DNA from: an uncultured Gammaproteobacteria bacterium
GTDB lineage: Bacteria > Patescibacteriota > Microgenomatia > Daviesbacterales > UBA10151
Length of the DNA stretch: 64,000 nucleotides
Direction of reading: 5' to 3'
Assembly (NCBI GenBank): GCA_964396715.1
Contig: CAYNFQ010000001.1
Span: forward strand, 117,873-181,872
The notes under the pieces are model-generated. The model searched no databases. It saw only the letters and a list, made by a program, of their open reading frames with translations, and was not told the origin of the DNA. The translations under genes were made by a program, and so were the position numbers. Below are positions 16,019 through 38,682 of this stretch, one piece after another (within the stretch, counting starts at the first letter, position 1; the number at the start of each line of letters is the position of its first letter).

Positions 16019-16587
16019 GCCCGGTTTCTATTGATTCAATAATTGGTGCCGATTCCCAAATAGAAGAGTTTGTGGTTATCAAAGGAAATACAACAATCGG
16101 AAAAAACAGTTTAATCCGCTCACATACGGTAATTTATCCGGGGAATAAAATCGGGGATAACTTTAAAACAGGCCATGGAGTTTTAATCAGGGAGAACAAC
16201 ATTATTGGTAAAAACGTAAGTATTGGAAGCCACACAGTTTTAGAACATGACGTGATAATTGGCAGCAGTTGCAGAATTCATTCGGGAGCCTTTATTCCGG
16301 AGTTCACAGCTATAGAAGAAGGAGCGTGGATTGGTCCTGCTGTTGTGATTACAAATGCGAAATATCCAAACTCCCCTACGGCCAAGAATAAATTAAAAGG
16401 GGTCACAATTAAAAAGAATGCAAAGATCGGGGCGGGAGCGGTGATCTTACCAGGTGTTATAATAGGCCAAAATGCTTTGGTTGGGGCGGGAGCTGTTGTG
16501 ATTAAAGATGTTTTGGATGGAGAAGTGGTTGTCGGCAATCCCGCAAGAGTTATCAAAAGAATTTCGGAGATTAAAGATTATGAGTAA
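16003..16587 (+). CDS. Left-handed beta-helix (hexapeptide) N-acetyltransferase, WbpD/WlbB-like
   Basis: Repeated [LIV]G-x4 hexapeptides throughout (IGKNVSIGSHTVLEHDVIIGSSCRI...). Confidence 0.8.
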   Translation: MDKNLSPVSIDSIIGADSQIEEFVVIKGNTTIGKNSLIRSHTVIYPGNKIGDNFKTGHGVLIRENNIIGKNVSIGSHTVLEHDVIIGSSCRIHSGAFIPEFTAIEEGAWIGPAVVITNAKYPNSPTAKNKLKGVTIKKNAKIGAGAVILPGVIIGQNALVGAGAVVIKDVLDGEVVVGNPARVIKRISEIKDYE

Positions 16588-17695
16588 TATAAAAAACGTT
16601 TCACTGATGGATTTACCGGGACAATACCGGCTGGTTGAAAAACAGGTTTTACCCAAGATAAAAGAAGTCTTAAAATCCGGCCGTTATATCATGGGGCCGG
16701 AAGTTACCAAATTTGAGGAAAATTTCGCCAAATATTGTCATGTAAAGCATTGTATTGGTACGAGTTCAGGAACGGAATCATTATATCTTTCGCTGCTCGC
16801 GCTTGGTATAGGAGCAGGGGATGAGGTTATCACGGTCCCTAATACCTTTACAGCTACGGCAGAGGTGATAGTTTTGGTGGGTGCAACTCCTGTTTTTGTT
16901 GATGTTGACCCAAAGACTATGAATTTGGATCCCAAGGCGCTAAAATCTAAAATCACCGGTAAAACCAAAGCGGTAATTCCCGTTCATTTGCACGGTAACC
17001 CGGTTGATCTGGATGAAATTTATAAAATTACCTTTCCCAAAAAGATTGCGGTGATTGAAGATGCGGCCCAGGCCCATGGCGCAAAATATAAAGGCAAAAT
17101 TATCGGATCATCAAAATCTGAATTTATCTGTTTTAGTTTTCATCCTGTCAAAAATTTGGGAGCATTTGGTGATGCGGGAGCAATTGTGACAAACGATTCC
17201 AAATTGGCTGAAATTGTCAGAAAACTTTCCAACCACGGAAGGGAAGATCACTATTTTCATAGCTTGATTGGTACAACCGGCAGGTTGGATGCGCTACAAG
17301 GGGCGATTTTGGATATTAAGCTCAAAAAACTTAACAAATGGACAAGGGCAAAAACAAAATGGGCAGGTTATTATAAAAAGAAGTTGTCTGGTATCTGTAA
17401 ATTTATTGAAACAACAACAGGGGGAGAGAGTGCGCACCATGTAGTAGCGTTATTAACTGACCGCAGAGATGAGTTGTCGACATACCTTAAAAGTTTCGGT
17501 ATTGAAACAGGGGTACATTATCCGACGCCGTTGCATATTCAGCCGGCATACAAATTTTTAGGTCATAAAAAGGGTGATTTCCCGGTTGCCGAAAAATACG
17601 CAGAAGAAACTCTTTCCCTACCTCTTTATCCGCATATGAAAAAAGAGGAAATAGATTTTGTTATCCAAAAAATTCATCAATTTTATGACCAGTAA
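16580..17695 (+). CDS. DegT/DnrJ/EryC1/StrS-family PLP-dependent sugar aminotransferase (WbpE/ArnB-like)
   Basis: Start ATG 16580 preceded by ggaga, 8-nt overlap with upstream stop; family-typical GTESL, DAAQAHG, FSFHPVKNLGAFGDAGA motifs. Confidence 0.85.
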   Translation: MSNIKNVSLMDLPGQYRLVEKQVLPKIKEVLKSGRYIMGPEVTKFEENFAKYCHVKHCIGTSSGTESLYLSLLALGIGAGDEVITVPNTFTATAEVIVLVGATPVFVDVDPKTMNLDPKALKSKITGKTKAVIPVHLHGNPVDLDEIYKITFPKKIAVIEDAAQAHGAKYKGKIIGSSKSEFICFSFHPVKNLGAFGDAGAIVTNDSKLAEIVRKLSNHGREDHYFHSLIGTTGRLDALQGAILDIKLKKLNKWTRAKTKWAGYYKKKLSGICKFIETTTGGESAHHVVALLTDRRDELSTYLKSFGIETGVHYPTPLHIQPAYKFLGHKKGDFPVAEKYAEETLSLPLYPHMKKEEIDFVIQKIHQFYDQ

Positions 17696-18659
17696 AAAAA
17701 TATTAATCACCGGAGGCGGAGGTTTTATCGGCAGTTTTCTGACGGAAAAATTTTACAAAGATAATCAAGTTACTTTATTTGATAATGGCCGCAGAAATTC
17801 TTTCCATTTTCTTGACCAAACAATCCGTAAGCAGGTTAATTTTGTAAGCGGCGATATCAGGGACGACGAGAAAGTTTCAAAGATTGTTAAGGGTCAGGAT
17901 ATCGTTATTCATATGGCGGCAATTGCAGGAGCATCTTTTTATGAAACCGATCCGCTTTTGACTTTGGACGTAAATCTCTTTGGGACTGCCAATCTGCTCA
18001 AAGCTCTTATAAAATCAAAAGCGGAAAAAATAATTACTTTTTCCACCTCGGAAGTTTACGGATCTTTGGCAGCTGATGTTTCAGAAGATGATCCAACCTG
18101 CATTGGTCCCGTATCGGAAGGACGGTGGTCGTATGCTGTTTCTAAAATAGCTTCCGATCATCTGGCCAGGGCGTATTTTAAAAAATATAGCCTGCCGGTT
18201 AATATGATAAGACCTTTTAATATTTACGGGCCAAGGCAGGTAGGGGAAGGGGCTGTCAGTAATATGTTAACTCAAGCAATAAAGACGGGAAAGATTTATG
18301 TTTCAGGAGACGGCGCACAAAAAAGGGCATGGTGTTATATATCAGATATGGTTGAAGCTGTAAAGTTGGCTTTGGAAGAAGATGTCTTGGGAGAGTGTTT
18401 TAATGTGGGTAATTCTGATGCTTATGTTACTATTCTGGAGCTTGCAAAAAAAATCCAAAGTCTTGTTAAAGGCTCGGAGATAATTTTTACCGAAGAGAGA
18501 AAGGTGGAAGTTTTGGATAGAAAACCAAATGTAGACAAGGCCAAAAGAGTGCTCGGCTACTCACCTAAAGTTACACTTGAGCAGGGACTTGGATTGACTT
18601 ATAGATGGTGGACTGACAATATTTTAAATTTTAAAAACTTGGGTAGTTGCGGTTTCTAA
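17685..18659 (+). CDS. NAD-dependent NDP-sugar epimerase/dehydratase (extended SDR)
   Basis: ITGGGGFIGS, YAVSK catalytic YxxxK; start at Met10 overlapping upstream stop. Confidence 0.8.
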   Translation: MTSKKILITGGGGFIGSFLTEKFYKDNQVTLFDNGRRNSFHFLDQTIRKQVNFVSGDIRDDEKVSKIVKGQDIVIHMAAIAGASFYETDPLLTLDVNLFGTANLLKALIKSKAEKIITFSTSEVYGSLAADVSEDDPTCIGPVSEGRWSYAVSKIASDHLARAYFKKYSLPVNMIRPFNIYGPRQVGEGAVSNMLTQAIKTGKIYVSGDGAQKRAWCYISDMVEAVKLALEEDVLGECFNVGNSDAYVTILELAKKIQSLVKGSEIIFTEERKVEVLDRKPNVDKAKRVLGYSPKVTLEQGLGLTYRWWTDNILNFKNLGSCGF

Positions 18660-20138
18660 AAGCAAAGATTTGGAGTTTAAATTTAGCTCCTTGCTATTTG
18701 CATAATCTTTTTTAAGGACCAAAATATTTAAATTATATTTTTTAGCAAGTTCACGGATTGGCTTTTTTATTATTGGAAATATATCATTGATTCTCCCCAG
18801 GTGTCCTGCCTGAATTTCCACCATTACCTTGGCACGGGTATTATATAAGACCATAGTAGTTATTTGATGGGGAATGCAAAGGATCCTGGGTTGGGGTTTT
18901 AATTTATTTAATAATTTAAAAACCTGATTCATATCTTTAGTCATAGTCCTGTTTTTATCGGCAATAATTCCCTTTATTTGTAAAAATATTGTTAAAGCAA
19001 TATTTGTGATAAATATTACAATATAGCCGGGAATAGCAATATTTTTATAAGGGCTCCCACTCAGGGCAAAAAAGGCGATTGCAGAAATTATGGCTGTTGG
19101 GGCAATTGACATTTCCATATATCTTTGCCCCTCCCCTATCGGGGTAAGCGGTTTAATAGTTAGAACTAAAATTGAAAAGAGATAGAAGAAGATTACCCAG
19201 ACACTCATTTTTATCATCAATGGGTCATTTAGTGAATAAAGACTGGTTGAGGCAATAGGAATATGGAAATAATTGGCAATAAGAAGGGCAATTGGGATTA
19301 TTATCCAAAGATTGGTTCCGATTAATGTGACAGGACTAAAAGTGCCCAGCAGTTTGTAAATTTTACCTACCAGATCTATTTTTTTAGGGGGAACCAGTCC
19401 CCTAACCTGATGGGCAAATCGGTAGTGATAATTTTTTACCCAGAAGAGAATATTATCAATGTGACCCCTCAAGATTCTCAGATAGTATCCTTTGGAGATT
19501 GCTATAGCAAGCCCCATTCCGGTAAAAAATAAAAGTAAGTAAAAAGGATTTTTCTCGATGATGGAGAAAAAAATGCTTATAAAAAAAAGCGATTGGAGCG
19601 CAAATTTGTGAGTAAAAAAAAGGATTATCAAAAAAATTAAGCCAATGGTTAAATATAGAAGATTTGGGGCCAGCGTATATAAAATTATCGGATAGAAAGC
19701 CAAAGTAAAGTTTAAATAGCCCATCGACCTTGGGGTTAGGTAGCTATTTTCCAAAATCGTTAGGGGAATTGATGCATATATAGCTTGTGAAAGCAGAGCT
19801 GCTTCCAACCTGTTTGTTAACTGCAGAGTTATTAGAAAGACCAGGTAGTTTTGGATGATATCAAAAAGAGGGGCAATAAACCCCTGTATCTTAAAAACTA
19901 CACCTTTAGGAATAAAGGAGAGCATCCAGGGAAGAGCCGGAGGGTAATTTAAATATCCATCAAGAATGAAACCGCCGGAAATTTTTTCCAAAGGGAGCTT
20001 GTGATTATTTTTCCTGAAGTATTCAGCCTCAATCATCCGGGTCCAAACATCCACCCCAAAATATTTATTAAAAAGCCGAGGGTATGTTTGTAATAAGTAG
20101 CTAAGCAAAGGTATAATCAGTCCCAAGAGAAAAAACAT
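18624..20138 (-). CDS. Polytopic integral membrane protein, possible polysaccharide polymerase or GT-C-like transferase
   Basis: 504 aa, ~12 hydrophobic segments; no recognisable soluble enzyme motif. Confidence 0.5.
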   Translation of the reverse strand: MFFLLGLIIPLLSYLLQTYPRLFNKYFGVDVWTRMIEAEYFRKNNHKLPLEKISGGFILDGYLNYPPALPWMLSFIPKGVVFKIQGFIAPLFDIIQNYLVFLITLQLTNRLEAALLSQAIYASIPLTILENSYLTPRSMGYLNFTLAFYPIILYTLAPNLLYLTIGLIFLIILFFTHKFALQSLFFISIFFSIIEKNPFYLLLFFTGMGLAIAISKGYYLRILRGHIDNILFWVKNYHYRFAHQVRGLVPPKKIDLVGKIYKLLGTFSPVTLIGTNLWIIIPIALLIANYFHIPIASTSLYSLNDPLMIKMSVWVIFFYLFSILVLTIKPLTPIGEGQRYMEMSIAPTAIISAIAFFALSGSPYKNIAIPGYIVIFITNIALTIFLQIKGIIADKNRTMTKDMNQVFKLLNKLKPQPRILCIPHQITTMVLYNTRAKVMVEIQAGHLGRINDIFPIIKKPIRELAKKYNLNILVLKKDYANSKELNLNSKSLLLETATTQVFKI

Positions 20139-21654: not shown

Positions 21655-22313
21655 AATATCAACTGGCAGCATCTATCATTTGCGCAAAATTAATCGCTTT
21701 GAAAACACAGTTAAAGCTTCTGGAAAAAGGTAGAATTGACCGCATTCATTTTGACGTAATGGACGGAGTATTTGTGCCAAGATACGGCTTGCCTCCTGAA
21801 ATATTAAAAGAAGTACACCAAGTTACCAATATCCCAGTTACAGTTCATCTGATGGTTTCTGACCCCGAGCCATATATTGAAGTTTTTGCCAAAGCAGGGG
21901 CAGATGCTTTTGTTTTTCATATTGAGCCGGTATTTCATGTAAACAGAGTAATAAAAAAAATTAAAGAGGTCGGTATGAAAGCAGGGGTTGCCTTAAATCC
22001 GGCTACTCCCCTTTCCGTTTTGGATTATGTTTTGCAGGATTTGGATGTAGTAATGCTGATGGTAATAAACCCTGGAATTTTAGGCCATAAATTGATTCCC
22101 GAAATGCTTTTTAAAATTGCCGATTTAAAAAATAAATTAAAAAATTATCCCGATATCAAAATAGAAATTGACGGTGGAGTAACGTCTGAAAGCGCTCCCA
22201 AAATGATTGCAAACGGCGCTGATATCCTGGTCTGCGGAAATTCCAGCATTTTCAAAAACGACTCATCCGTTGATAAGACAATAAAAGAATTTAGAAGGGT
22301 AATAGAAAAATGA
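21651..22313 (+). CDS. rpe: Ribulose-phosphate 3-epimerase family (RPE/allulose-6-P epimerase-like)
   Basis: HFDVMDGVFVP, VHLMV, LNPATPL, DGGV motifs collinear with RPE; ATGA overlap with upstream. Confidence 0.8.
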   Translation: MKYQLAASIICAKLIALKTQLKLLEKGRIDRIHFDVMDGVFVPRYGLPPEILKEVHQVTNIPVTVHLMVSDPEPYIEVFAKAGADAFVFHIEPVFHVNRVIKKIKEVGMKAGVALNPATPLSVLDYVLQDLDVVMLMVINPGILGHKLIPEMLFKIADLKNKLKNYPDIKIEIDGGVTSESAPKMIANGADILVCGNSSIFKNDSSVDKTIKEFRRVIEK

Positions 22314-23902
22314 AAAGCAATTATAAAGTTTTAATTACCACTTCCGGGTTAGGACAAAGGTTGGGGGAGCTGACTAAATATACCAATAAATCTTTAATCA
22401 GGATTGGCAAAAAACCGGCAATCTCCTATATTATAGAAGCTTACCCAAAGGAAACCGAGTTTGTAATCACCGTCGGCCATTTTGGCAACCAGATAAAGGA
22501 TTTTATAAAAATTGCCTACCCAAATTTAAAAGTGACTTTTGCGGAGGTTGATAAATACCAGGGTTCGGGTTCAAGTTTGGGATATTCCATGCTGGCGGCA
22601 AAAAAATATTTGCAGTGTCCTTTCATCTTTCATGCATCAGATACTATAGTAACTGAACCGATTCCGACTCCTGATAAAAATTGGAACGGAGGGTTTAAAG
22701 GAGTTAGTTCTGCCAACTATTCTACTTTTACTGTTTCAAAAAATATGGTGGGTAGCATAAATGATAAAGGAGCCCTGGAGTATGATTTTATCCATATTGG
22801 ACTGGTGGGAATTAAAGATTTTAAGTCTTTTTGGTATAACCTTGAATCGCTATATTTGGGATCTATTTATAAAGATCCCAATGATACTTCATTAAATGAC
22901 TGCAAAGTTTTAAACGTGATGCTTAATGAGGGTAAAATATTCGAGGCAGTAGAGTTTAAAAGCTGGCATGACATAGGTAATGTTGACGTCTTAAATCAGA
23001 TCAGAAAAGAAATAGTGGAGAAGTTTGAAAACCTTGATAAGCCGGGGGAGGCAATTTTTATCTTTCCTAAATTCGTCATTAAATTTTATTTTGATAAAGA
23101 ACTTGTCGAAAAAAAGATTAAAAGGGCAGAAACCCTAAAAGGGCTCGTTCCTGATATTGAGAGATCAATTGGTAATTTTTTCAGATATAAATATGAAGAG
23201 GGGGATCTTTATTCAGAAAGTATTACGGTTTCTGATTTTGAAAGATTTCTGAATTGGTGTAAAGAAAATCTTTGGATTAAGAAAAATATTCTGGTTGATA
23301 AAAAATTCAAAGATCTGTGCGGCAATTTTTATATAGATAAAACAAAACAAAGAGTCCACGATTTTTTGGAGATAACTAAAATAGGAGATACAGAGGAAAT
23401 TATTAACGGAGATAGGGTACCTTCTGTCTCAGAACTTTTGAAACAGATTGATTTTGCTTGGCTATCAGATGGTATCCAGGCTCTTATGCACGGCGATTTA
23501 ATACTGGAGAATATTATCAAGACGAAAGAGGGATATAAGCTTTTGGACTGGAGGCAGGATTTTGGGGGGAATATGGAGATTGGGGATATGTATTATGATC
23601 TTGCCAATTTAAATAAGAACTTTACCTTAAATCATGAATTAGTGAATAAAGGACATTTTTTTATTGAAAAAAAAGGTAAGAATATGAGATGCGACATTCT
23701 GGAAAGCCATAATCTGGTTGAGTGCCAGTTGACTTTGTGGGATTTTATTCAGAAAGAAGGACTTGATCTTAAAAAAGTAAAAGTTTTAACATCTCTTAAA
23801 TGGCTTTCTATGTCCCCCCTGCACCCAACTCCTGTAAACTTTAATTTGTTTTTATATTATTTTGGCAGATTAAATTTGTACAGGTCATTGAAAGGCATAT
23901 AA
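22310..23902 (+). CDS. Bifunctional fusion: N-terminal sugar-phosphate nucleotidyltransferase (LicC/MobA-like) + C-terminal APH/choline-kinase-like phosphotransferase
   Basis: N-terminal LITTSGLGQRLG nucleotidyltransferase motif; C-terminal HGDLILENII...LLDWRQDFG kinase catalytic/Mg-binding motifs. Confidence 0.7.
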   Translation: MKSNYKVLITTSGLGQRLGELTKYTNKSLIRIGKKPAISYIIEAYPKETEFVITVGHFGNQIKDFIKIAYPNLKVTFAEVDKYQGSGSSLGYSMLAAKKYLQCPFIFHASDTIVTEPIPTPDKNWNGGFKGVSSANYSTFTVSKNMVGSINDKGALEYDFIHIGLVGIKDFKSFWYNLESLYLGSIYKDPNDTSLNDCKVLNVMLNEGKIFEAVEFKSWHDIGNVDVLNQIRKEIVEKFENLDKPGEAIFIFPKFVIKFYFDKELVEKKIKRAETLKGLVPDIERSIGNFFRYKYEEGDLYSESITVSDFERFLNWCKENLWIKKNILVDKKFKDLCGNFYIDKTKQRVHDFLEITKIGDTEEIINGDRVPSVSELLKQIDFAWLSDGIQALMHGDLILENIIKTKEGYKLLDWRQDFGGNMEIGDMYYDLANLNKNFTLNHELVNKGHFFIEKKGKNMRCDILESHNLVECQLTLWDFIQKEGLDLKKVKVLTSLKWLSMSPLHPTPVNFNLFLYYFGRLNLYRSLKGI

Positions 23903-26172: not shown

Positions 26173-27354
26173 ATGAATGGCGTGATGTTTAGAGACTATA
26201 CTTTTATTATAGCCTTTCATGAAGCCATTCCCATTGGACCCTCCTTTGATTTGAAAAAGTTTCTCTTTATTACTCCCCCAAAAAAGCTTTTTTTTATATC
26301 ACACCCGCTTCTTTATAACAAATTAGCATACAAAAACAGTTCGTGGTATGAATATCATGAGAATGGCAGATTGATTTTCAAAAGAAAAGCCTTTCACTGG
26401 ATTTTACCCGAACCGGTCCACTATATCAAAGATGTTTTGTATACATTCTTTTGGTGCAGTCGGATAAGTGGCAAATTTGATGTTTTTGTAGGTTTAAACC
26501 CCCTTAATGCGCTGGTGGGGATATTATTAAAAAGATTTGGTAAAGTTAAAAAAGTTGTTTATTATTCAATCGATTATTTTCCTCAAAGATTTGAAAATTC
26601 TCTGATGAATAATATTTATCACTCTACAGACAAACTGGCCGTAAAATTTTCAGATGAAACCTGGAATGTTTCTCCCAACATGGCTATTTCAAGGAATGAG
26701 TATCATCATGATCCAAATTTGTTTAAAAAGCAGTTTACAGTTCCGATAGTAGCCTGGGTAAGGGGTACTAAAAGAGTAAAATTTAACGAGATTGATAAAA
26801 AAAAATTAGTTTTTATAGGACTGCTAGATAAATCTTCGGGGTTGGAGCTTATTATTAAAGCGCTTCCTAAAATAATAAACAAAATTAAAAATGTTAAATT
26901 AGAAGTTATTGGGGGAGGACCGAATTTAGACTATTTGAAACAGCTGGCAAAAAAATTTAAAGTGGATTCTAATATTATTTTTCATGACTGGATAATAAAC
27001 AGAGAGAAAGTTGAAGAAATAATTTCACACTCGGCTGTGGGGTTAGTTTTATTTAATACAAGAGAATTCGGTACAGAAATAAAAAATGCCGACCCGATGA
27101 AGATAAAAGATTATATGTCATTAGGTCTCACTATAATTTCAACGGATGCCATTTTGACTGCAGATGAAATAATAAAAGCAAAATCAGGGATTATCATACA
27201 CTTTGATGTGAATGAATTGGCAGATGCGGTAATTAAATTACTGGGGGATGAGAAGTTACTCAAAGCTTATAGAAAAAATGCGCTAGATTATATTAAGAAA
27301 TTTGATGCGGAGAAGGTATTTGGAGATAATCTGACAAGATTATTATCAGTATGA
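26173..27354 (+). CDS. GT4 (GT-B) glycosyltransferase
   Basis: 393 aa, two Rossmann-like halves, KxxE-rich C-domain. Confidence 0.7.
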   Translation: MNGVMFRDYTFIIAFHEAIPIGPSFDLKKFLFITPPKKLFFISHPLLYNKLAYKNSSWYEYHENGRLIFKRKAFHWILPEPVHYIKDVLYTFFWCSRISGKFDVFVGLNPLNALVGILLKRFGKVKKVVYYSIDYFPQRFENSLMNNIYHSTDKLAVKFSDETWNVSPNMAISRNEYHHDPNLFKKQFTVPIVAWVRGTKRVKFNEIDKKKLVFIGLLDKSSGLELIIKALPKIINKIKNVKLEVIGGGPNLDYLKQLAKKFKVDSNIIFHDWIINREKVEEIISHSAVGLVLFNTREFGTEIKNADPMKIKDYMSLGLTIISTDAILTADEIIKAKSGIIIHFDVNELADAVIKLLGDEKLLKAYRKNALDYIKKFDAEKVFGDNLTRLLSV

Positions 27355-28163
27355 ATAGAGTGATAATTACTGGCGCAACAGGTTTTATTGGTAAAAATTT
27401 AGTTGAAAACCTTAATTCTAAAAACTTTATAGTTTCAATTTTTGATCGAAAGAAACATGACTTATTCCAAATCAATTCACTTAAGGATTTATTAAAAGGG
27501 CAAGATGTAATAGTTCATCTGGCGGGTGTTAATAAAGACGGTTCACTAAAAGATATCTTAAGGGTAAACATTTTGGGAACTAAAAAATTACTAGATGCTG
27601 CTTTAAAATATTGCCCGAACGCAAAATTTATTTTCGCCTCATCCTCTCAAGTTTACGATGAAGATGATGTTTCCGGGCTTTCAAAATTAATAGCAGAGGA
27701 GTTGATAAAAGATTATGTAAAAAACAAACTCTTAAAAGGTGCAATAATTCTTAGATTTTCCAATATCTTTGGAAAAGGCTCAAAACCATTTACAAATTCT
27801 GCTCTGTCAACTTTTGCCTATTTAATAAAGGAGGGTAGAGAAATTACCATTAACGGAATAGGGGAACAAACCAGAGATTTTCTCTATATTGACGATGCCA
27901 TAAACGCTATAATAAGGGCAATTGACTTTGATCCTAAAGGGATAGAAACCTTTGATATATGTACAGGTAAATTGACTTCAATAAATCAACTTATACAAAA
28001 ATTGATGCAAATCTTAAAAATTAAGGTTCCAATAAGGTATAATAGGGGGAACCAATCAATAAAAAAGGTGCTGAAAAATTATCAAAAAGCAAAAAAAATA
28101 TTGGGTTGGCAGCCAGTAATACTATTGGAAGAAGGATTAAGACAATTTATAGAAAAAATATGA
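27351..28163 (+). CDS. Short-chain dehydrogenase/reductase, CapF/WbjC N-terminal (4-reductase) domain-like
   Basis: ITGATGFIGKNLV Rossmann; 270 aa; directly followed by cupin ORF and CapE/CapG homologs. Confidence 0.6.
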   Translation: MNRVIITGATGFIGKNLVENLNSKNFIVSIFDRKKHDLFQINSLKDLLKGQDVIVHLAGVNKDGSLKDILRVNILGTKKLLDAALKYCPNAKFIFASSSQVYDEDDVSGLSKLIAEELIKDYVKNKLLKGAIILRFSNIFGKGSKPFTNSALSTFAYLIKEGREITINGIGEQTRDFLYIDDAINAIIRAIDFDPKGIETFDICTGKLTSINQLIQKLMQILKIKVPIRYNRGNQSIKKVLKNYQKAKKILGWQPVILLEEGLRQFIEKI

Positions 28164-28552
28164 AAATTGACATAAGGAAGCTTGATGTAAAAAAAGACGA
28201 AAGAGGTTGGCTGACAGAAGCCATAAAACCTGGTGATGTCGTGGAAGCTTCCTTTGGGTTGATTCACATAACCTGTGCAAAGCCGGGATACGAAAGAGGT
28301 GGCCACTATCATAAAAGAAAAACAGAATGGTTTTGCGTGATAAAAGGAGAGGGAAAATTTTTTCTAAAAGATCTCAAGTCAGGCGATAAAAAAACTTTAA
28401 AAGTAGGAAGGGAAAACATGTCACTTATAAAAATTCCGCCTTACATTTTTCATTCAATTAAAAACACAGGAAAAGATGATATGTATATTTTAGCTTACGT
28501 TAATGAGGGATTTGATCCCAAAGATACGGATACTTACAGGGAGCTTAGTTAA
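28160..28552 (+). CDS. Cupin domain protein, CapF/WbjC C-terminal (3-epimerase) domain-like
   Basis: GGHYHKRKTEWFCVIKGEGKF; ATGA overlap with SDR gene; CapF is known as an SDR+cupin fusion. Confidence 0.6.
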   Translation: MKIDIRKLDVKKDERGWLTEAIKPGDVVEASFGLIHITCAKPGYERGGHYHKRKTEWFCVIKGEGKFFLKDLKSGDKKTLKVGRENMSLIKIPPYIFHSIKNTGKDDMYILAYVNEGFDPKDTDTYRELS

Positions 28553-28554
28553 TT

Positions 28555-29628
28555 ATGGATAAGGATTTTTCCAAAAAAATTAAAGATAAGCAAAGTTTGT
28601 TACTTCATAATAAAGTGATTTTAATAACCGGGGGGACGGGTTCATTTGGTACAGCAGTTGTTGCTAAGTTGCTAAGCTTCACTCCCAAAAGAATAATTAT
28701 ATTCTCAAGAGACGAAAAAAAACAGTTTGACATGCGAAATTTCTATGACAGCCCGCTTTTAAAATTTGTCATAGGTGATGTTCGTGATAAAGAAAGTCTA
28801 GATAAAGTTATGAGTGGAGTGGATTATGTTTTCCATGCGGCAGCTTTAAAACAAGTACCATCCTGCGAGTTTTTTCCGATTGAAGCTGTTAAAACTAATG
28901 TACTGGGCGCAAATAATGTTATAGAACTTGCCGAACATCACAATGTGGAACGTCTGGTTATTTTATCAACAGATAAAGCTGTTTATCCGATTAATGCCAT
29001 GGGTATGACCAAGGCCTTGATGGAAAAAGTGATGATAGCGGCTGCCAGAAAAATCAGCGAGGCAAATAACAAAAGTACAACCTTATGTGGTGTGAGGTAT
29101 GGAAATGTGATGTATTCCAGGGGATCTGTAATTCCTTATTTTGTAGATTTAATAAAACAGGGAAAACCTTTGGCGGTTACAGATCTCAATATGACGAGAT
29201 TTCTATTGCCTTTGCCGGATTCTGTTGATTTGGTTCTTTTTGCTTTGACTTTTGGTGAGAATGGGAATATGTACGTCAGGAAATCTTCTGCGTCAACAAT
29301 TGAGATTTTAGCCAAAGCTTTGTGTAAGATATTTGACCACAAGACTGGCATTCAAGAGGTAGGGGTGAGGGCAGGAGAAAAAATACATGAAACATTAGTA
29401 TCTGAAGAGGAATTTTTAAGAGCAAAGGATTTGGGTGATTATTACAAAATTCCGTCTGAAACTCAAGGGTTGGATTATAATAAATATTTTATCAGAGGCA
29501 GAGAAATTGAAGATGGTCGTCTAGAGCCGTTTACTTCCGAAAATACCAGACGACTGAGTTTAAAAGAAACAATAGAGTTACTTATGACTCTTCCCGAAAT
29601 TCAACAGGAATTGAAAAATTTATCATGA
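28555..29628 (+). CDS. UDP-GlcNAc 4,6-dehydratase/5-epimerase, CapE/WbjB/FnlA-like (CapD family)
   Basis: KVILITGGTGSFGTAVVAKLL; catalytic region MGMTKALMEK with Met replacing Tyr, as in CapE. Confidence 0.85.
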   Translation: MDKDFSKKIKDKQSLLLHNKVILITGGTGSFGTAVVAKLLSFTPKRIIIFSRDEKKQFDMRNFYDSPLLKFVIGDVRDKESLDKVMSGVDYVFHAAALKQVPSCEFFPIEAVKTNVLGANNVIELAEHHNVERLVILSTDKAVYPINAMGMTKALMEKVMIAAARKISEANNKSTTLCGVRYGNVMYSRGSVIPYFVDLIKQGKPLAVTDLNMTRFLLPLPDSVDLVLFALTFGENGNMYVRKSSASTIEILAKALCKIFDHKTGIQEVGVRAGEKIHETLVSEEEFLRAKDLGDYYKIPSETQGLDYNKYFIRGREIEDGRLEPFTSENTRRLSLKETIELLMTLPEIQQELKNLS

Positions 29629-30761
29629 CTCAAAAACTTAAAATCTTAACTATACTGGGAACGAGACCGGAAATCATCAGGCTTTCCCGCATATTACCCA
29701 AAATGGATGAATATTTCAATCATGTAATTGTTCATACCCGACAAAGTTACGACTTCGAGTTAAGTAAAATCTTTTTTGAAGAACTTGAGCTTAGGAAGCC
29801 TGATTATTTGCTCGAAGTAAAATCAGATACACTGGGCGGACAAATAGGAAATATTTTAAAACAGACTGAAGAGGTTATGAAAAAAGAAAAACCGGATGCA
29901 ATTTTGATTCTTGGTGATACGAACAGTTCTTTGTCGGCAATTATGGCAAAACGGCTGGGTATTTTGATATTTCATATGGAGGCCGGCAGCAGGTGTTTTG
30001 ATTTTGAGGTGGCAGAGGAAACAAACAGGGCTTTGGTTGATGTGATCAGTGATTATAATGTACCATACACACAAAGAAGTAAAGAATACTTAATTCATAG
30101 CGGAATACATCCGAGGACCATTTTAGTGACCGGTTCTCCACTGGCTGAAGTATACGATTTCTTTAAAGAAAAGATCGACTCTTCTTCGATCATTGAGGAT
30201 TTAGATCTCAAGCCAAACCAGTATTTCGTAGTCAGTGCTCACAGGGAAGAAAATGTAGATAATCCAGCTAATCTTAAAGAATTATTTGAATCTTTAAATT
30301 TTTTAACGGATTTATATAAATTACCAATTATTATCACGCTGCATCCAAGAACCAAAAAAAGGCTAAGTGACAATAAGATTAAAATTAATCCAAAGATATT
30401 GTTGCATAAACCGTTTGGGATTTTGGAATATATCAAATTGGAACAGAATTCACTTTGTACAATTTCCGACAGCGGTACTATCCAGGAAGAATCCTCCATA
30501 TTAGGTTTTAATGCCATTCAAATAAGGGCCAATTTGGAAAGGCCGGAGGCTTTTGACAAAGGAGCAATAATCCTAGCAGGTTTGAATAAAAACACTATTG
30601 TTAATGCAATAGAGATGACTATAAAAGAAAAAGAATTAGGACAAAAAATAGTAACACCAGATGATTATAAGGACATTAATGTTTCTTCCAAAGTAGTGAG
30701 GTTAATAATGGGGCTTTCAGCTGCTAAAAAATATCACAATAAAGCACCTCACGGATTTTGA
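29625..30761 (+). CDS. UDP-N-acetylglucosamine 2-epimerase, non-hydrolysing (WecB/CapG/WbjD-like)
   Basis: ILTILGTRPEIIRL, VSAHREENVDN, signature collinear with WecB. Confidence 0.85.
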   Translation: MTQKLKILTILGTRPEIIRLSRILPKMDEYFNHVIVHTRQSYDFELSKIFFEELELRKPDYLLEVKSDTLGGQIGNILKQTEEVMKKEKPDAILILGDTNSSLSAIMAKRLGILIFHMEAGSRCFDFEVAEETNRALVDVISDYNVPYTQRSKEYLIHSGIHPRTILVTGSPLAEVYDFFKEKIDSSSIIEDLDLKPNQYFVVSAHREENVDNPANLKELFESLNFLTDLYKLPIIITLHPRTKKRLSDNKIKINPKILLHKPFGILEYIKLEQNSLCTISDSGTIQEESSILGFNAIQIRANLERPEAFDKGAIILAGLNKNTIVNAIEMTIKEKELGQKIVTPDDYKDINVSSKVVRLIMGLSAAKKYHNKAPHGF

Positions 30762-31491
30762 TCTTTTTCAATGTGGGCATCAGTAAAAAAGATTTTTTTA
30801 CCATCTTTACAAACTATATACGCATTAGGATAGGGATTAGCAAGGCTTCTTATAAAATTATAAAGCTCATCAGATGTTTTTGTTTGAAAATCCTTAACAG
30901 TTAATTCACTCTGTTCAGGTTTTCTTCTTTTGAATGTAGTAACTATTGAAGGATCTTGCGGTACAGGTTGAAGAGTTCCATTGCTAATCCCTCTCAGAAT
31001 TCTAAGGGTTGTTGAAGTTCCTTCATTAATTATTCGTTTGAATATTTGATCTAGAGATCCCTTAAGAGAAAACGGAGATTGGCCATAGATTGGTCCGGAA
31101 TCCAGTCCAGCATCTGCTTTAAAAATGGTCACAGCAGACGTTTTTTCCCCTGCTATAATCTGATGTTGTAAGGGAGATCCACCTCGATATTTAGGCAGGG
31201 GAGAGATATGCAGTGTTAAAGTCAGATATTTTTCAAAAATTTCTTTTGGTATAAACCATAACCATCCAAAAATGAGTAAAATATCTGCCTTTTGTTTCTT
31301 TATTATTTCAACCAGGCCTTTTTTATCAAGAGGATCAAGTTTATAACAAGGAACAGATAAATTTTCAAACTTGCCTCTGGATTTGGTGTTGTAACTGTCG
31401 CACGAATTTTCCAATTAGTGTTTTTTTGTTGTAAGAGTTTTCTTAAAATCTGATAAGCCCATTTTCTATACCCGAAGTAGATAACGTTCAT
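30749..31491 (-). pseudogene. Frameshifted formyltransferase (PurN/Fmt-like); N-terminal 62-aa ORF (31303..31491) and 221-aa catalytic ORF (30749..31414) in different frames
   Basis: MNVIYFGYRKWAYQILRKLL... matches Fmt N-terminal Rossmann; second frame carries HISPLPKYRGGSPLQHQII; frames must join near 31381-31395. Confidence 0.55.
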
Positions 31492-32166
31492 AATGATGCT
31501 TTAAGGAGATTATAGCCTTCCGCATATTTCACGCCTATTTCAGTCCCCCTTATTCCTGCCATCCTTTCTAAATTTTGAGGGCTTCTGGGAAAAGGGTCTT
31601 CCCGTAGCTGAGTTTCGTGGCATTTTAAAAGTTCTATTTTTTCTTTAAAAATTTCAGAAATATCAAAATAAAAATTAGGTTTGAATCCATCCCGGTTAGT
31701 CCAGCTATATGGCTCTTCAGCTTCCAGTATGATTTTTGGCTGATGGCGCAAATTTTTAGGAATTGGTCTAAGAGCCGTGATAGATGCGGAAAAAAGCGCT
31801 CTATGGTCCTGATCAAAGCTGTCCCTAAATGGTATGCAAATTATATCAGGTTCAAACGCTTCAATTTTATCTTCTATATTTTCAATAAGTCTCTTTTGCG
31901 GCACACTGTCAAGTTTCATAAATTCCTCACCTTGAAACATTATTGAGTATTCAAAACCACCATACTTTGAAGCTTTTTTTGCCTCATCAAGACGACTTGC
32001 AGAATTTGTTTTTCCGGTAACCAACTGCCTTGATGAGCCAATAGATCCATACATCACGAATACTCTTGCACCAGTTTTTTTTTGCAAGCATGATCAACCC
32101 ACCACAGCAAATGGCTTCATCATCGGGATGAGGTGCAATAATCAAAATTTTTTTACCCTTAAGCAT
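31488..32166 (-). CDS. PIG-L/LmbE-family N-acetylglucosaminyl deacetylase, interrupted by a frameshift in an A9 homopolymer (plus-strand T9 at 32075-32083)
   Basis: Upstream frame encodes MLKGKKILIIAPHPDDEAICCGGLIMLAKK (PIG-L motif), downstream frame continues TGARVFVMYGS...; removing one A restores one ORF. Confidence 0.6.
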
Positions 32167-32226
32167 ATAAGTTCCAAAATTGCATTATGTAAGCAGAACA
32201 ACTGTATTATACAATATATAGATCTT

Positions 32227-34377
32227 ATGATGGATATTAAAAAAAATTTGAGTCCACTAATTATTTTAATAGTTTGTTTGATCCTTATTTTTGTATGGTT
32301 TAACAAGGGTTTGCTTTTTGCAGGTGGAGAGGGGGGAATCCCTTTTTATAACCTTTCAAAAACTGCAGAGCGCATTTCTTATCTTTGGATAGATGAAGAG
32401 GCTGGTTATCCGGGTGTAGGCAATCTAACAGAAGTCCCTTACTATGCATTGCTTAAGATCCCTTTGCAGTTTGGTGTGCCTTCAAATCTGGTTCAGGCTT
32501 TTCATTTTTTCTTGGTTATGTTTACCGGCGTGGTTTCTGTATATTTTCTGATAAAAATAACCATAGAGGAAGAACTTAAAAAAAATCTTAATTTTTGGGG
32601 CGCAAAATATATATCTTTGATTGGCGCTATCTTCTATTTATTAAATCCTTTTTCCATGTCGCAGGTTTTTGGCAGGAGTTTAAATATTCAATATCTTTCT
32701 TTTGTATTGCTGCCTTTATTTCTCCTGCTGTATATCAGGGGACTTAAAACAAGAAATCTAATATATGGCTTTTTAAGCTTGATACCTTCTTTTATCTTCT
32801 CAGGAGCGTATGGCAGTTTTGGATATATACCAGCACTTTGGTTTCTGGTATTTCTTTATACTGTATTTTACCTTTGGAAAAATAGAAGTAAAAGAGAAAT
32901 TATTTTTGGTATTTTTTTCTTATCTTTTGTTTTTCTCAGCTGGATCATGGTAAATCTTTTTTGGATTATTCCGGTTTTTAAATTAGGGGGACAACAACTG
33001 GCAGCTTCCCTTAATGCGACAGAGGAAAATCTTGGGTCTTTAAGAGGGGTGAGTAAGCATTTTTCTCTGCCTATTCTTATCAGGCTTCTTCATACAGGAT
33101 ATTTCTATGAGGATTTATACGGGATTGTTTATTCAAGTTTATTCTTTGTGATTATAAGTTGGATAATTCCTGTAGTGTCATTTTTTTCATTAACCCTTTT
33201 TAAGAAAGTAACCAGTTTTAAATTCTACCTGACTTTATTTGTAATTTCCCTTTTTATATCTTTAGGTTCTAATTTCCCAACAGGCTGGTTATTTGAATTC
33301 ATATTTGAAGCTGTACCTGCATTTCAAATGTACAGGAATCCTTATGAAAAATTTGGGCTGATTTTTCTTTTAGCCTATACCCCATTTTTTGCATTGGGGA
33401 CTCTGGTTTTGTCAGAAAAATTAGCTGCCTTTTTTAAACATCAACGTTTAAAGTATTTTTGGGTGGTGCTCATTCTTTTTCTGGTGAGTGGCATTTTTGT
33501 TTGGCCAATGTGGAAGGGAATTTTTGCAGGAGGTTACAGGATCAATACCTGGATAAACGTACCTGATTATTATAAAAATGCTAACGATTGGTTAAATCAG
33601 CAGGATGGAGATTTTAGATTGTTGCATCTTCCTTTAATTCCAGGAGATGGCATAAGGTATAAGTGGGATCATCCATATCAAGGCATTGAACCGTCTGAAT
33701 TTTTATTTGATAGAGCATCAATAGCTCAAAATATTCCTTTTAACAAACAATATTACAATGTTTTACTTCAGCGCATTGGGATTTTCCAGCCAAATATTTT
33801 TGGTTCTGATCCTGATTTGACAAATTCGGAATTTAAATCCGAAAAATTAGGGGAAGAGTTAGCGAAATTAAATATTCGATATATAGTTTTACATAATGAT
33901 ATTGATGTTAGTTTCGGTGGTTTCAAAACACCACAAGAAACTGCAGTCTATTTGGCCAAAGATAAAAAAATAATCAAAGTTAAAAGTTTCGGTCAGCTGG
34001 ATATATATGAGGTGGAAATTCCCCAAAATATTCAAATTATTTATTCTCCATCAACTACTTTAATCTATGAAAAAATTAACCCCGCTTTTTATAAAGTAAA
34101 AGTTACTGATGAAGTTAAACCTTTTAATTTGAATTTTCTTATGTCTTACAATTCAAATTGGCACGCTGTTATTGATGGTGAAGTAATACAGGATCATGTA
34201 AAATTATTTTCGTATGGAAATTCCTGGGAAGTTAACAAAACCGGCAGTTTTGAAATAGATTTAGTTTATAAACCGCAGGAACTGGTTAAACAGGGACAAA
34301 TAATTTCAACGTTTTCGTTTATAGTAATATCTCTGCTGATGGTCTGTTACCAAATTATATGGAAAAAAAGAATTTAA
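32227..34377 (+). CDS. Large polytopic membrane protein, family B (N-terminal multi-TM GT-C-like domain + C-terminal extracytoplasmic beta-rich domain)
   Basis: Shares WFxxGLxFxGGxxGxxFxN, RNPYEKFG, LLHLPLIPGDGIRYKWDHPYQGIEPSEF, IRYIVLHND motifs with the giants at 38636, 42468 and 46347. Confidence 0.65.
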   Translation: MMDIKKNLSPLIILIVCLILIFVWFNKGLLFAGGEGGIPFYNLSKTAERISYLWIDEEAGYPGVGNLTEVPYYALLKIPLQFGVPSNLVQAFHFFLVMFTGVVSVYFLIKITIEEELKKNLNFWGAKYISLIGAIFYLLNPFSMSQVFGRSLNIQYLSFVLLPLFLLLYIRGLKTRNLIYGFLSLIPSFIFSGAYGSFGYIPALWFLVFLYTVFYLWKNRSKREIIFGIFFLSFVFLSWIMVNLFWIIPVFKLGGQQLAASLNATEENLGSLRGVSKHFSLPILIRLLHTGYFYEDLYGIVYSSLFFVIISWIIPVVSFFSLTLFKKVTSFKFYLTLFVISLFISLGSNFPTGWLFEFIFEAVPAFQMYRNPYEKFGLIFLLAYTPFFALGTLVLSEKLAAFFKHQRLKYFWVVLILFLVSGIFVWPMWKGIFAGGYRINTWINVPDYYKNANDWLNQQDGDFRLLHLPLIPGDGIRYKWDHPYQGIEPSEFLFDRASIAQNIPFNKQYYNVLLQRIGIFQPNIFGSDPDLTNSEFKSEKLGEELAKLNIRYIVLHNDIDVSFGGFKTPQETAVYLAKDKKIIKVKSFGQLDIYEVEIPQNIQIIYSPSTTLIYEKINPAFYKVKVTDEVKPFNLNFLMSYNSNWHAVIDGEVIQDHVKLFSYGNSWEVNKTGSFEIDLVYKPQELVKQGQIISTFSFIVISLLMVCYQIIWKKRI

Positions 34378-38000: not shown

Positions 38001-38682
38001 TCACCGGCATGAATTTGAAAAAGATTCACAGAGCAAGTTTAAATTATTTTTAATGGCTATATCCGATCCATTGTCTTGGGTTGTTGATAAATCGGTAAGG
38101 TCAATATTGGATTTGGGGTGCGGTCAGGGCAAGCCAATGGCTATGATCAAACTTTGGCACAAAATAGATACTGCGGTGGGAGTTGAGCTATATAAGCCGT
38201 ATATTAAACTTGCAAGAAAGCAGAAGTTACACGATAAATATATTATTGGAGATGTAAGAGAGGTTAATTTTAAACCAAAATCTTACGATTTAGTTTTAGC
38301 CTCCCATGTTCTAGAGCATCTTCCTAAAAAGGATGCATGGAAACTTTTGAGCAAGATGGAAAAAATTGCCAAGATGCAAATTATTGTGGCAACGCCGATC
38401 GGAGCAATTTATCAACCTGCTTTTGATGATAATAAACTCCAGCAACACAAATCACATTTTCTGCCGGAAGAATTTGAAAAAAGAGGTTACAAGGTGATCA
38501 AATACGGTTTAAGATTTCTTTTGGATGAACATTCCGGGGGATTAGTTTACAAATTTAGCAATCCTACTGTTAAAAAAATTATCTATATTGTTAATTTTTT
38601 AATGACTCCTCTTTACTATCTATTCCCTCAAATTTGTGATTATTCGTTTGTGGCCTACAGGAGTATTAATAGTGAAAATTAA
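37990..38682 (+). CDS. Class I SAM methyltransferase, tandem paralog of the C-terminal domain of 36444..38000
   Basis: ILDLGCGQGKP...ASHVLEHLPKKDAWKLL...FLPEEFEKRGYKVIKYGLRFLL collinear with fused domain; start at Met13 of ORF. Confidence 0.7.
   Translation: MKHNHRHEFEKDSQSKFKLFLMAISDPLSWVVDKSVRSILDLGCGQGKPMAMIKLWHKIDTAVGVELYKPYIKLARKQKLHDKYIIGDVREVNFKPKSYDLVLASHVLEHLPKKDAWKLLSKMEKIAKMQIIVATPIGAIYQPAFDDNKLQQHKSHFLPEEFEKRGYKVIKYGLRFLLDEHSGGLVYKFSNPTVKKIIYIVNFLMTPLYYLFPQICDYSFVAYRSINSEN

What the first reader, a model, noticed from the sequence alone, without database searches (positions are those of the whole stretch)
27351..30761. UDP-L-FucNAc-type pathway with CapF split into separate SDR and cupin genes and a Met-for-Tyr CapE
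28555..29628 has the CapE/FnlA/WbjB hallmark (GGTGSFG plus MGMTKALMEK with Met in the catalytic Tyr position). 29625..30761 is a WecB/CapG 2-epimerase. Upstream, 27351..28163 (SDR) and 28160..28552 (cupin) together correspond to the two domains of bifunctional CapF (cupin C3-epimerase + SDR C4-reductase). Here they are separate ORFs in swapped order, overlapping by ATGA. A naturally split CapF would be a useful evolutionary intermediate and a structural/enzymological test case.
Basis: partly seen in the sequence, partly recalled or inferred. Interest (0 to 1): 0.55.

Follow-up and report, generated by a model that had tools for sequence, protein, structure and literature searches.

The report
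Unfused CapF step in FucNAc operon
A Candidatus Daviesbacteria genome carries an ordinary operon for an N-acetyl-L-fucosamine-type sugar in which the step done by the fused enzyme CapF in Staphylococcus is encoded by two separate genes; this unfused layout is real but common and probably ancestral.

Summary
The four ORFs, the motifs and the ATGA overlap are all present as described. The cupin (28160-28552) is closest to the C-terminal domain of S. aureus CapF. The next two genes are clearly CapE/FnlA-type and CapG-type.

- The gene order is not swapped. CapF is SDR (N-terminal) then cupin (C-terminal), the same as here.
- Met-for-Tyr is the published hallmark of the whole CapE family, not a peculiarity of this gene.

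The split is not a sequencing artefact. Identical DNA recurs in six other independent assemblies. Relatives keep two genes with junctions of -4, +4, +3, -11, -14 and +211 nt, in all three relative frames.

The split is also not rare. 118 of the 150 best cluster representatives are standalone cupins, from CPR bacteria, archaea, Nitrospinota and other groups. In rough trees the fused forms make one clade and this gene lies outside it, so unfused is probably the ancestral state.

This is unexplained.

The pathway is ordinary and the architecture is a modest variant. Interest is about 0.3.

The parts
26173..27354 (+). GT4 glycosyltransferase. First gene of the translationally coupled block, and a candidate transferase for the sugar made downstream (inference only).
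   Evidence: Pfam Glycos_transf_1 69.5 bits. Its stop overlaps the SDR start (sequence). It is syntenic in L001, L002 and L012 at 50-79% identity.
27351..28163 (+). Standalone extended SDR of 270 aa, the presumed NAD(P)H-dependent C4-ketoreductase. It has the GATGFIG cofactor motif at residue 8, Ser97/98 and Lys112, but Ser108 where the catalytic Tyr should be.
   Evidence: The best NCBIfam hit is WbcJ NF047837, positions 2-213, 105.9 bits. PDB hits are CapF residues 3-189 at 82 bits and the full-length T. maritima GalE-like protein 4zrm at 93 bits. The AF2 model has pLDDT 93 and folds as a complete extended SDR.
28153..28163 (+). Gene junction: an A6 run (28153-28158) followed by the ATGA start/stop overlap (28160-28163). 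One extra A in the run would fuse the two ORFs in frame.
   Evidence: Read directly from the sequence. The same DNA is present in six other independent assemblies. Relatives have different junctions.
28160..28552 (+). Standalone cupin of 130 aa, the presumed metal-dependent C3-epimerase of the UDP-4-keto-6-deoxy-L-sugar. The canonical cupin ligands are His49, His51, Glu56 and His98.
   Evidence: NF047837 positions 253-365, 72.8 bits. CapF residues 255-365, E 6e-15. The top five Foldseek hits are CapF structures at 32-33% identity. H49, H51, E56 and H98 are invariant in 35 standalone homologues.
28555..29628 (+). CapE/FnlA/WbjB-type UDP-GlcNAc 4,6-dehydratase/5-epimerase, with an MxxxK motif (Met149, Lys153), STDKA at residue 138 and RAGEK at residue 272.
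   Evidence: PDB hits: FnlA 4j2o 374 bits, CapE 3vvb 371 bits, FlaA1 2gn4 220 bits. TIGR04130 FnlA scores 411 bits and PseB 313 bits. PF08485 scores 42.7 bits.
29625..30761 (+). CapG/FnlC-type non-hydrolysing UDP-sugar 2-epimerase.
   Evidence: Best PDB hit is S. aureus CapG 7ya2 at 394 bits, against about 100 bits for E. coli and B. subtilis UDP-GlcNAc 2-epimerases. TIGR00236 scores 237.7, above its cut-off of 210.
30749..31491 (-). Formyltransferase gene interrupted by a 1-nt frameshift near 31370. This is context and probably not part of the core pathway.
   Evidence: tblastn with the intact L001 and L012 orthologues places the N-terminal 43 aa in another frame. The same truncated ORF recurs in independent assemblies.
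31488..32166 (-). PIG-L/LmbE-type deacetylase gene interrupted by a frameshift in an A9 run (32075-32083). The N-terminal 30 aa, which carry the PHPDDE motif, are in another frame.
   Evidence: tblastn, sequence, and recurrence in independent assemblies.

Best explanation
Genes 27351-30761 lie in a surface-glycan island of a Candidatus Daviesbacteria (CPR) genome. I propose that they encode the known route from UDP-GlcNAc to a UDP-2-acetamido-2,6-dideoxy-L-hexose, most likely UDP-L-PneNAc and then UDP-L-FucNAc.

Proposed steps:
1. The CapE-type enzyme performs 4,6-dehydration and C5 epimerisation.
2. The 130-aa cupin, with a His/His/Glu/His metal site, epimerises C3.
3. The 270-aa SDR reduces the 4-keto group with NAD(P)H.
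4. The CapG-type enzyme epimerises C2.

Steps 2 and 3 are carried out by one fused protein (CapF/WbjC/FnlB) in the characterised bacteria. Here they are two translationally coupled genes in the same order as the CapF domains.

The two-gene form is conserved and widespread, and it is probably the ancestral state. The fused CapF looks like a single later fusion.

Shown here: the gene identities at family level, the reality and conservation of the split, its distribution, and the tree positions. Inferred: every enzymatic activity, the product stereochemistry, and whether an SDR without the catalytic Tyr still reduces.
For: Family assignments:
- The CapE type scores 371-374 bits to solved CapE and FnlA, with the MxxxK motif.
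- The CapG type scores 394 bits to solved CapG against about 100 bits to ordinary WecB enzymes.
- The cupin matches CapF residues 255-365 by sequence and by fold. The canonical cupin metal-ligand positions (H49, H51, E56, H98) are invariant. The first three align with CapF His288, His290 and Glu295.
- The SDR's best curated-family hit is WbcJ, positions 2-213.
- In an NJ tree the cupin-adjacent SDRs are sister to the SDR domains of fused CapF, and generic GalE-like SDRs lie outside.
- The CapF chemistry and domain order come from PMC5393024 and PMC3699295.

The split is real:
- Identical DNA for 27351-28552 is present in six other independent assemblies.
- The synteny GT4-SDR-cupin-CapE-CapG is kept in L001, L002, L008 and L012.
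- Junctions in relatives are -4, +4, +3 (same frame, with a stop between), -11, -14 and +211 nt.

The split is widespread:
- The whole-library search found 1788 hits at E<=1e-3.
- 118 of the best 150 representatives are 200 aa or shorter.
- All 26 genome loci are standalone, from CPR bacteria, DPANN and other archaea, Nitrospinota, Actinomycetota, Moorella and Gemmatimonadota.

The fused form is one clade:
- All 30 canonical fused cupin domains fall in one NJ clade that excludes the query.
- In 89 of 100 bootstrap replicates at least 27 of the 30 stay together with at most 5 standalone sequences inside. The query is inside in 0 of 100.
Against: - The SDR has Ser108 at the catalytic Tyr position. 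In its 28-member CPR clade the position is F in 20, Y in 6, S in 1 and L in 1. The textbook SDR reduction mechanism therefore cannot be assumed.
- The SDR is the least conserved gene of the operon, at 61% identity to L001 against 74-86% for the other genes.
- By fold it resembles generic extended SDRs, and CapF is not in its top 50 hits.
- None of the equivalog cut-offs for FnlA (411 against 730) or WbcJ (106 and 73 against 500) is reached.
- C4 stereochemistry (talo or manno) cannot be read from the sequence.
- The trees are distance-based, on short domains, midpoint-rooted, and built from sequences chosen by similarity to the query.
Confidence: 0.72

Rival explanations
1. The split is a sequencing or assembly frameshift, and the true gene is a fused CapF.
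For: An A6 run lies directly before the junction, and one extra A would fuse the ORFs in frame (sequence). Two neighbouring genes in the window do carry frameshifts.
Against: Identical junction DNA is present in six other independently assembled runs. Relatives keep two genes with different junctions in all three relative frames. One of them has an in-frame stop between the genes and another a 211-nt spacer. The SDR ends where full-length extended SDRs end. All 33 close cupin homologues are 113-134 aa long.
Confidence: 0.02
2. The pair is a derived fission of a formerly fused CapF.
For: The short CPR SDRs share with fused CapF a roughly 16-residue deletion between the Ser and Tyr/Lys motifs. 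They also share the KPxxNSxxxTF motif. A few standalone cupins do sit inside the fused clade (P0254, P0268).
Against: The query cupin lies outside the fused clade in 100 of 100 bootstrap replicates. The SDR clade groups first with other cupin-adjacent SDRs that keep the loop. The SDR retains a canonical C-terminal substrate-binding subdomain that CapF has diverged from. The unfused state spans bacteria and archaea.
Confidence: 0.1
3. The SDR/cupin pair does different chemistry from CapF. Possibilities are:
- reduction with the opposite C4 stereochemistry, giving L-RhaNAc and then L-QuiNAc, as in the V. cholerae O37 WbvB/WbvR/WbvD route (from my own knowledge);
- a cupin acting as a 3,4-ketoisomerase;
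- an SDR that is catalytically inert and another reductase that does the work.
For: The catalytic Tyr is missing. The cupin also passes the FdtA Pfam threshold, at 31.8 bits against a cut-off of 23. FdtA, QdtA, RmlC and ChmJ are structural neighbours. In Nitrospinota the same cupin sits with three SDRs and no CapE-type gene, so the family serves other pathways too. A second, Tyr-type SDR lies at 17658-18659.
Against: CapF is the best match of the cupin by both sequence and fold. The His/His/Glu/His metal site is intact. The very high similarity of the last enzyme to CapG argues for the same substrate, UDP-L-PneNAc. RmlD-type reductase models score only 38 bits on the SDR.
Confidence: 0.15

Closest known systems
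S. aureus CapE-CapF-CapG (Cap5/Cap8), P. aeruginosa O11 WbjB-WbjC-WbjD and E. coli FnlA-FnlB-FnlC: the UDP-L-FucNAc pathway
   Same: The enzyme types are the same, and the first and last enzymes are very similar (371-394 bits to solved CapE, FnlA and CapG). The cupin is closest to the CapF C-domain and has the same metal-ligand pattern. The SDR-then-cupin order equals the CapF domain order.
   Different: The CapF function is encoded by two polypeptides. The genes lie upstream of capE rather than between capE and capG. The SDR keeps a full canonical substrate-binding subdomain. It has Ser in place of the catalytic Tyr103 of CapF. Neither half reaches the WbcJ equivalog cut-off.
RmlC plus RmlD of dTDP-L-rhamnose synthesis (from my own knowledge of the pathway)
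   Same: A separate cupin epimerase acts on a nucleotide-4-keto-6-deoxy sugar, and a separate SDR 4-ketoreductase follows. RmlC structures are strong fold neighbours of the cupin.
   Different: RmlC is metal-independent and epimerises both C3 and C5. The nucleotide is dTDP rather than UDP. RmlD-type models score weakly on this SDR, at 38 bits.
FdtA/QdtA 3,4-ketoisomerases (the source of NCBI's name 'WxcM-like domain-containing protein' for this cupin)
   Same: Small standalone sugar-nucleotide cupins of about 130 aa with a His-x-His motif. The Pfam FdtA model is matched at 31.8 bits.
   Different: Similarity is much weaker than to CapF, at 19.6 against 58 bits in the PDB search. The gene context holds CapE- and CapG-type genes rather than an aminotransferase.

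Membership tests
CapE/FnlA/WbjB (UDP-GlcNAc 4,6-dehydratase/5-epimerase) | MxxxK in place of the SDR YxxxK motif | tested here: met
   Met149...Lys153 (MGMTK). It aligns with INAMGISKAMMEK of the solved CapE and FnlA structures. The motif is described as absolutely conserved in PMC3699295.
CapE/FnlA/WbjB (UDP-GlcNAc 4,6-dehydratase/5-epimerase) | Equivalents of Asp125, Lys126 and Glu257, the residues shown by mutagenesis to matter in CapE | tested here: met
   STDKA at residue 138 and RAGEK at residue 272 align with the CapE motifs. The mutant data are in PMC3699295.
CapE/FnlA/WbjB (UDP-GlcNAc 4,6-dehydratase/5-epimerase) | Score above the NCBIfam TIGR04130 FnlA equivalog cut-off of 730 bits | tested here: not met
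   The score is 411 bits. FnlA is still the best family, ahead of PseB at 313 bits.
CapF/WbjC/FnlB (bifunctional C3-epimerase/C4-reductase) | A single polypeptide with an N-terminal SDR and a C-terminal cupin | tested here: not met
   There are two ORFs with an ATGA overlap. The two-gene state is conserved in relatives and in independent assemblies.
CapF/WbjC/FnlB (bifunctional C3-epimerase/C4-reductase) | A cupin domain with the His/His/Glu/His metal site, closest to the CapF C-domain | tested here: met
   H49, H51 and E56 align with CapF His288, His290 and Glu295. Together with H98 they are invariant in homologues. The top five Foldseek hits are CapF.
CapF/WbjC/FnlB (bifunctional C3-epimerase/C4-reductase) | An SDR domain with the Ser-Tyr-Lys catalytic set (CapF Tyr103, Lys107) | tested here: not met
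   The query has Ser108 aligned to CapF Tyr103, while Lys112 is conserved.
CapF/WbjC/FnlB (bifunctional C3-epimerase/C4-reductase) | Score above the NCBIfam NF047837 cut-off of 500 bits | tested here: not met
   The SDR scores 105.9 bits and the cupin 72.8 bits.
CapF/WbjC/FnlB (bifunctional C3-epimerase/C4-reductase) | NADPH-dependent conversion of the CapE product to UDP-L-PneNAc | not testable with these tools
   This needs enzyme assays.
CapG/FnlC/WbjD (UDP-2-acetamido-2,6-dideoxy-L-talose 2-epimerase, WecB superfamily) | Non-hydrolysing 2-epimerase family membership, and closer to CapG than to UDP-GlcNAc 2-epimerases | tested here: met
   TIGR00236 scores 237.7 against a cut-off of 210. 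CapG 7ya2 scores 394 bits against 97-102 bits for E. coli and B. subtilis WecB/MnaA.
FdtA/QdtA 3,4-ketoisomerases | The best family match is FdtA rather than the CapF C-domain | tested here: not met
   The FdtA Pfam model scores 31.8 bits, against 102 bits for the model that also covers the C-termini of fused CapF-like proteins. The PDB FdtA-domain protein scores 19.6 bits against 58 bits for CapF.

The most novel reading that the evidence does not exclude
The CPR-type SDR is a sugar 4-ketoreductase that has dispensed with the universal SDR catalytic Tyr (Phe in 20 of 28 clade members, Ser here). It could use another proton donor, such as Tyr102 of the SSxQVY turn. Alternatively it could be a nucleotide-binding partner that works only with the cupin. 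In either case the SDR plus cupin gene pair would be the ancestral module from which bifunctional CapF arose once, by a one-nucleotide fusion of an ATGA-overlapped pair.
Probability: 0.25. Interest if true: 0.5.

Novelty: new variant of a known kind. Interest (0 to 1): 0.3.

Why it matters
The biology is a standard surface-sugar pathway, so the practical weight is modest. Three things are of some use:
- CapF is studied as an antibacterial target and described as having a 'unique architecture'. These data suggest that architecture is a derived fusion of a widespread two-gene module. That module offers natural single-domain versions of each half for enzymology and structure work.
- The ATGA-overlapped pair next to an A6 run is one inserted base away from an in-frame fusion, which illustrates how such fusions could arise.
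- A whole clade of presumed 4-ketoreductases without the SDR catalytic Tyr is a testable oddity.

The operon also documents an L-FucNAc-type pathway in a CPR bacterium, a group whose surface glycans are essentially uncharacterised.

Tried and rejected
- A genome scan with a 35-sequence cupin alignment failed because no stretch was conserved enough. It was repeated with 11 closer sequences. This biases the loci towards the HYHKRKTE/WFCVIKG subtype.
- The original CapF structure paper (Biochem J 2012, doi 10.1042/BJ20112049) is not held. I could therefore not check mutant data for CapF Tyr103 or the published list of Zn ligands.
- Literature searches for an unfused CapF, for PF14667, and for FucNAc in CPR bacteria found nothing relevant.
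- The Pfam name 'Polysacc_synt_C' (PF14667) reported for the cupin is listed in PMC4594306 among Wzx flippase domains. I therefore did not rely on the name. I used only the fact that the same model is precomputed on the C-termini of fused CapF-like proteins.
- The frameshift-artefact reading was considered seriously, because two adjacent genes are frameshifted. It was rejected on the evidence.
- The fission reading was rejected provisionally on the trees.
- dN/dS was not attempted. The closest relative is only 61% identical in the SDR, so synonymous sites are saturated.


Full report
**Observation.**
The SDR stop and the cupin start overlap as ATGA. The longest cupin ORF starts at a TTG at 28106. 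Homologue N-termini align on the ATG at 28160, so that is the real start. GGTGSFG and MGMTKALMEK are present in the 357-aa protein.

Proteins identical to the cupin and the SDR are in NCBI under Candidatus Daviesbacteria bacterium. They are named 'WxcM-like domain-containing protein' and 'NAD(P)-dependent oxidoreductase'. The window therefore comes from a CPR (Microgenomates) genome.

**What each gene is.**
- *CapE-type gene.* The 357-aa protein scores 374 bits to solved FnlA (4j2o) and 371 bits to CapE (3vvb), against 220 bits to FlaA1/PseB. Both solved enzymes carry Met at the Tyr position. PMC3699295 describes the M134xxxK138 motif as absolutely conserved in this subfamily. The 'Met-for-Tyr CapE' is therefore the family hallmark and not a novelty.
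- *CapG-type gene.* The 378-aa protein scores 394 bits to solved S. aureus CapG (7ya2), against about 100 bits to ordinary UDP-GlcNAc 2-epimerases.
- *Cupin.* It matches CapF residues 255-365 (E 6e-15) and positions 253-365 of the WbcJ/CapF NCBIfam model. Its AF2 model (pLDDT 88.5) has the five CapF structures as its top Foldseek hits. These are followed by RmlC, ChmJ, FdtA and QdtA. His49, His51, Glu56 and His98 are invariant among 35 standalone homologues. The first three align with CapF His288, His290 and Glu295.
- *SDR.* Its best curated-family hit is the N-terminal part (positions 2-213) of the same WbcJ model. Its last 70 residues align with the canonical C-terminal subdomain of full-length extended SDRs. 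Its AF2 model (pLDDT 93) matches complete enzymes such as a T. maritima GalE-like protein and P. aeruginosa RMD. CapF is not among its top 50 hits.

**Gene order.**
CapF is N-terminal SDR (NADPH-dependent reduction) plus C-terminal cupin (Zn-dependent C3 epimerisation) (PMC5393024). The SDR gene precedes the cupin gene here. The order is therefore collinear with CapF and not swapped.

**Is the split real?**
An A6 run (28153-28158) sits directly before the ATGA, and one extra A would join the ORFs in frame. In addition, the two genes just downstream on the minus strand each carry a 1-nt frameshift relative to intact orthologues. I therefore took the artefact reading seriously. Three lines of evidence exclude it:
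- The DNA of 27351-28552 is identical in six other independently assembled sequencing runs (SRR12113383 to SRR12113431). The stretch 27351-32200 is identical in four of them.
- Relatives at 46-61% SDR identity keep two genes in the same synteny: GT4, SDR, cupin, CapE-type, CapG-type (L001, L002, L008, L012).
- Their junctions differ: -4, +4, +3 (same frame, with a stop between), -11, -14 and +211 nt. These cover all three relative frames.

**How common is it?**
All 33 close homologues of the cupin are 113-134 aa long. A full scan of 1.84 billion cluster representatives gave 1788 hits at E<=1e-3 and 516 at E<=1e-10. Of the best 150, 118 are 200 aa or shorter and 29 are longer than 330 aa.

A scan of one genome per species found 26 loci, all with a standalone cupin. 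They come from several CPR phyla, Nanoarchaeia, Woesearchaeota, Methanosarcinales, Bathyarchaeia, Nitrospinota, Actinomycetota, Moorella, Gemmatimonadota and others. That scan used motifs of the query's subtype, so it is biased towards it.

Most of these loci have an SDR directly upstream of the cupin. A CapE-type gene lies either downstream (CPR bacteria) or upstream (for example L006, L028, L029). The Nitrospinota loci have three SDR genes and no CapE-type gene, so the cupin family also serves other pathways.

**Direction of evolution.**
In an NJ tree of the cupin domain, all 30 canonical fused proteins (330-395 aa) fall into one clade nested within the standalone diversity. The query clade lies elsewhere. 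In 100 bootstrap replicates, at least 27 of the 30 fused sequences stayed together with at most 5 standalone sequences inside in 89 cases. The query never fell inside.

In an NJ tree of the Rossmann part of the SDR, the relationships are as follows:
- The 26 short CPR SDRs form one clade.
- Their nearest neighbours are other cupin-adjacent SDRs.
- That whole group is sister to the clade of fused CapF SDR domains.
- Generic GalE-like SDRs lie outside.

Both trees are rough: distance-based, on short domains, midpoint-rooted, and built from a biased sample. They agree that the SDR-cupin partnership is old, that fusion happened essentially once, and that this locus represents the unfused state and not a fission product. 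Three other long proteins (P0179, P0222, P0245) carry this cupin at their C-terminus and sit elsewhere in the tree, which suggests independent fusions.

**An unexplained feature.**
The SDR lacks the catalytic Tyr. Ser108-Gly-Leu-Ser-Lys112 aligns with CapF Tyr103-Gly-Glu-Ser-Lys107.

Among 28 short (266-276 aa) CPR-type SDRs the position is Phe in 20, Tyr in 6, Ser in 1 and Leu in 1. Lys112, Ser97/98 and the GxxGxxG motif stay conserved. One Nitrospinota cupin-adjacent SDR also has Phe. All fused forms examined keep Tyr.

The SDR is also the least conserved gene of the operon, at 61% identity to L001 against 74-86% for the others.

A 4-ketoreductase without this Tyr should not work by the textbook mechanism. 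Possible explanations are that Tyr102 of the conserved SSxQVY turn takes over, that another proton donor is used, or that the SDR has lost catalysis. I could not discriminate between these.

**Mechanism proposed.**
1. UDP-GlcNAc undergoes 4,6-dehydration and C5 epimerisation by the CapE-type enzyme.
2. The metal-dependent cupin epimerises C3.
3. The SDR reduces C4 with NAD(P)H to give UDP-L-PneNAc.
4. The CapG-type enzyme epimerises C2 to give UDP-L-FucNAc.
5. The upstream GT4 may then use the product.

The chemistry is taken from PMC3699295 and PMC5393024. All activities here are inferred from homology and context. The C4 stereochemistry, and hence L-FucNAc rather than L-QuiNAc, is the least secure step.

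**Context.**
The operon sits in a roughly 30-kb glycan island. The island holds several GT2 and GT4 transferases, methyltransferases and two AftD-like GT-C proteins. It also holds a second amino-sugar module at 15008-18659, made up of a UDP-GlcNAc 3-dehydrogenase-like enzyme, an acetyltransferase, an aminotransferase and a dehydratase-like SDR.

**Verdict.**
The finding is real, but it is an ordinary pathway. The two-gene CapF equivalent is common in uncultivated lineages, apparently undescribed in the literature I could search, and probably ancestral. I rate it a new variant of a known kind, with interest about 0.3. The Tyr-less SDR clade is the only truly odd element.

Noticed in passing
window 30749-31491 (-) and 31488-32166 (-): The formyltransferase and the PIG-L/LmbE deacetylase just downstream of the CapG-type gene are each broken by a 1-nt frameshift relative to intact orthologues in L001 and L012. 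The deacetylase shift lies in an A9 run (32075-32083) and cuts off the PHPDDE motif. The same lesions recur in independent assemblies. In L002 the formyltransferase is absent and the deacetylase is truncated, so this pair seems to be lost repeatedly. Phase variation at the A9 run is conceivable but untested.
   Followed up: partly
window 27351-28163, residue 108; also L010 3898-4779: The SDR catalytic Tyr is replaced by Ser here. Most of the short CPR clade has Phe at this position (20 of 28), and so does one Nitrospinota relative. Lys and Ser of the catalytic triad are conserved.
   Followed up: partly
window 28153-28163: The A6 run lies immediately before the ATGA overlap, so a single inserted A would create an in-frame 400-aa SDR-cupin fusion. 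This illustrates how a CapF-type fusion could arise.
   Followed up: yes
window 15008-18659 (+): A second amino-sugar module lies here. It holds a UDP-GlcNAc 3-dehydrogenase-like GFO/IDH/MocA enzyme, a NeuD/PglB-type hexapeptide acetyltransferase, a DegT/PseC-like aminotransferase and a 4,6-dehydratase-like SDR.
   Followed up: no
window 32128-34377 (+) and 38636-42139 (+): Two large proteins have weak matches to the AftD-type GT-C glycosyltransferase domain. The first is syntenic with the FucNAc-type operon in L001, L002 and L033. The ORFs of 504 aa (18624-20138, minus strand) and 530 aa (22310-23902) have no family match at all.
   Followed up: no
L015-L020, L023, L025 (Nitrospinota genomes): The same standalone cupin follows three consecutive SDR genes with no CapE-type gene nearby. 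This suggests a different nucleotide-sugar pathway that uses this cupin family.
   Followed up: no
proteins P0179 (407 aa), P0222 (493 aa), P0245 (433 aa): These long proteins carry this cupin at their C-terminus but sit outside the canonical fused CapF clade in the tree. They may be independent fusions.
   Followed up: no
Pfam label of the cupin: The tools label the cupin model PF14667 'Polysacc_synt_C'. PMC4594306 (Table 1) lists that accession among Wzx flippase domains. The name is therefore uninformative or mismatched for this domain.
   Followed up: partly
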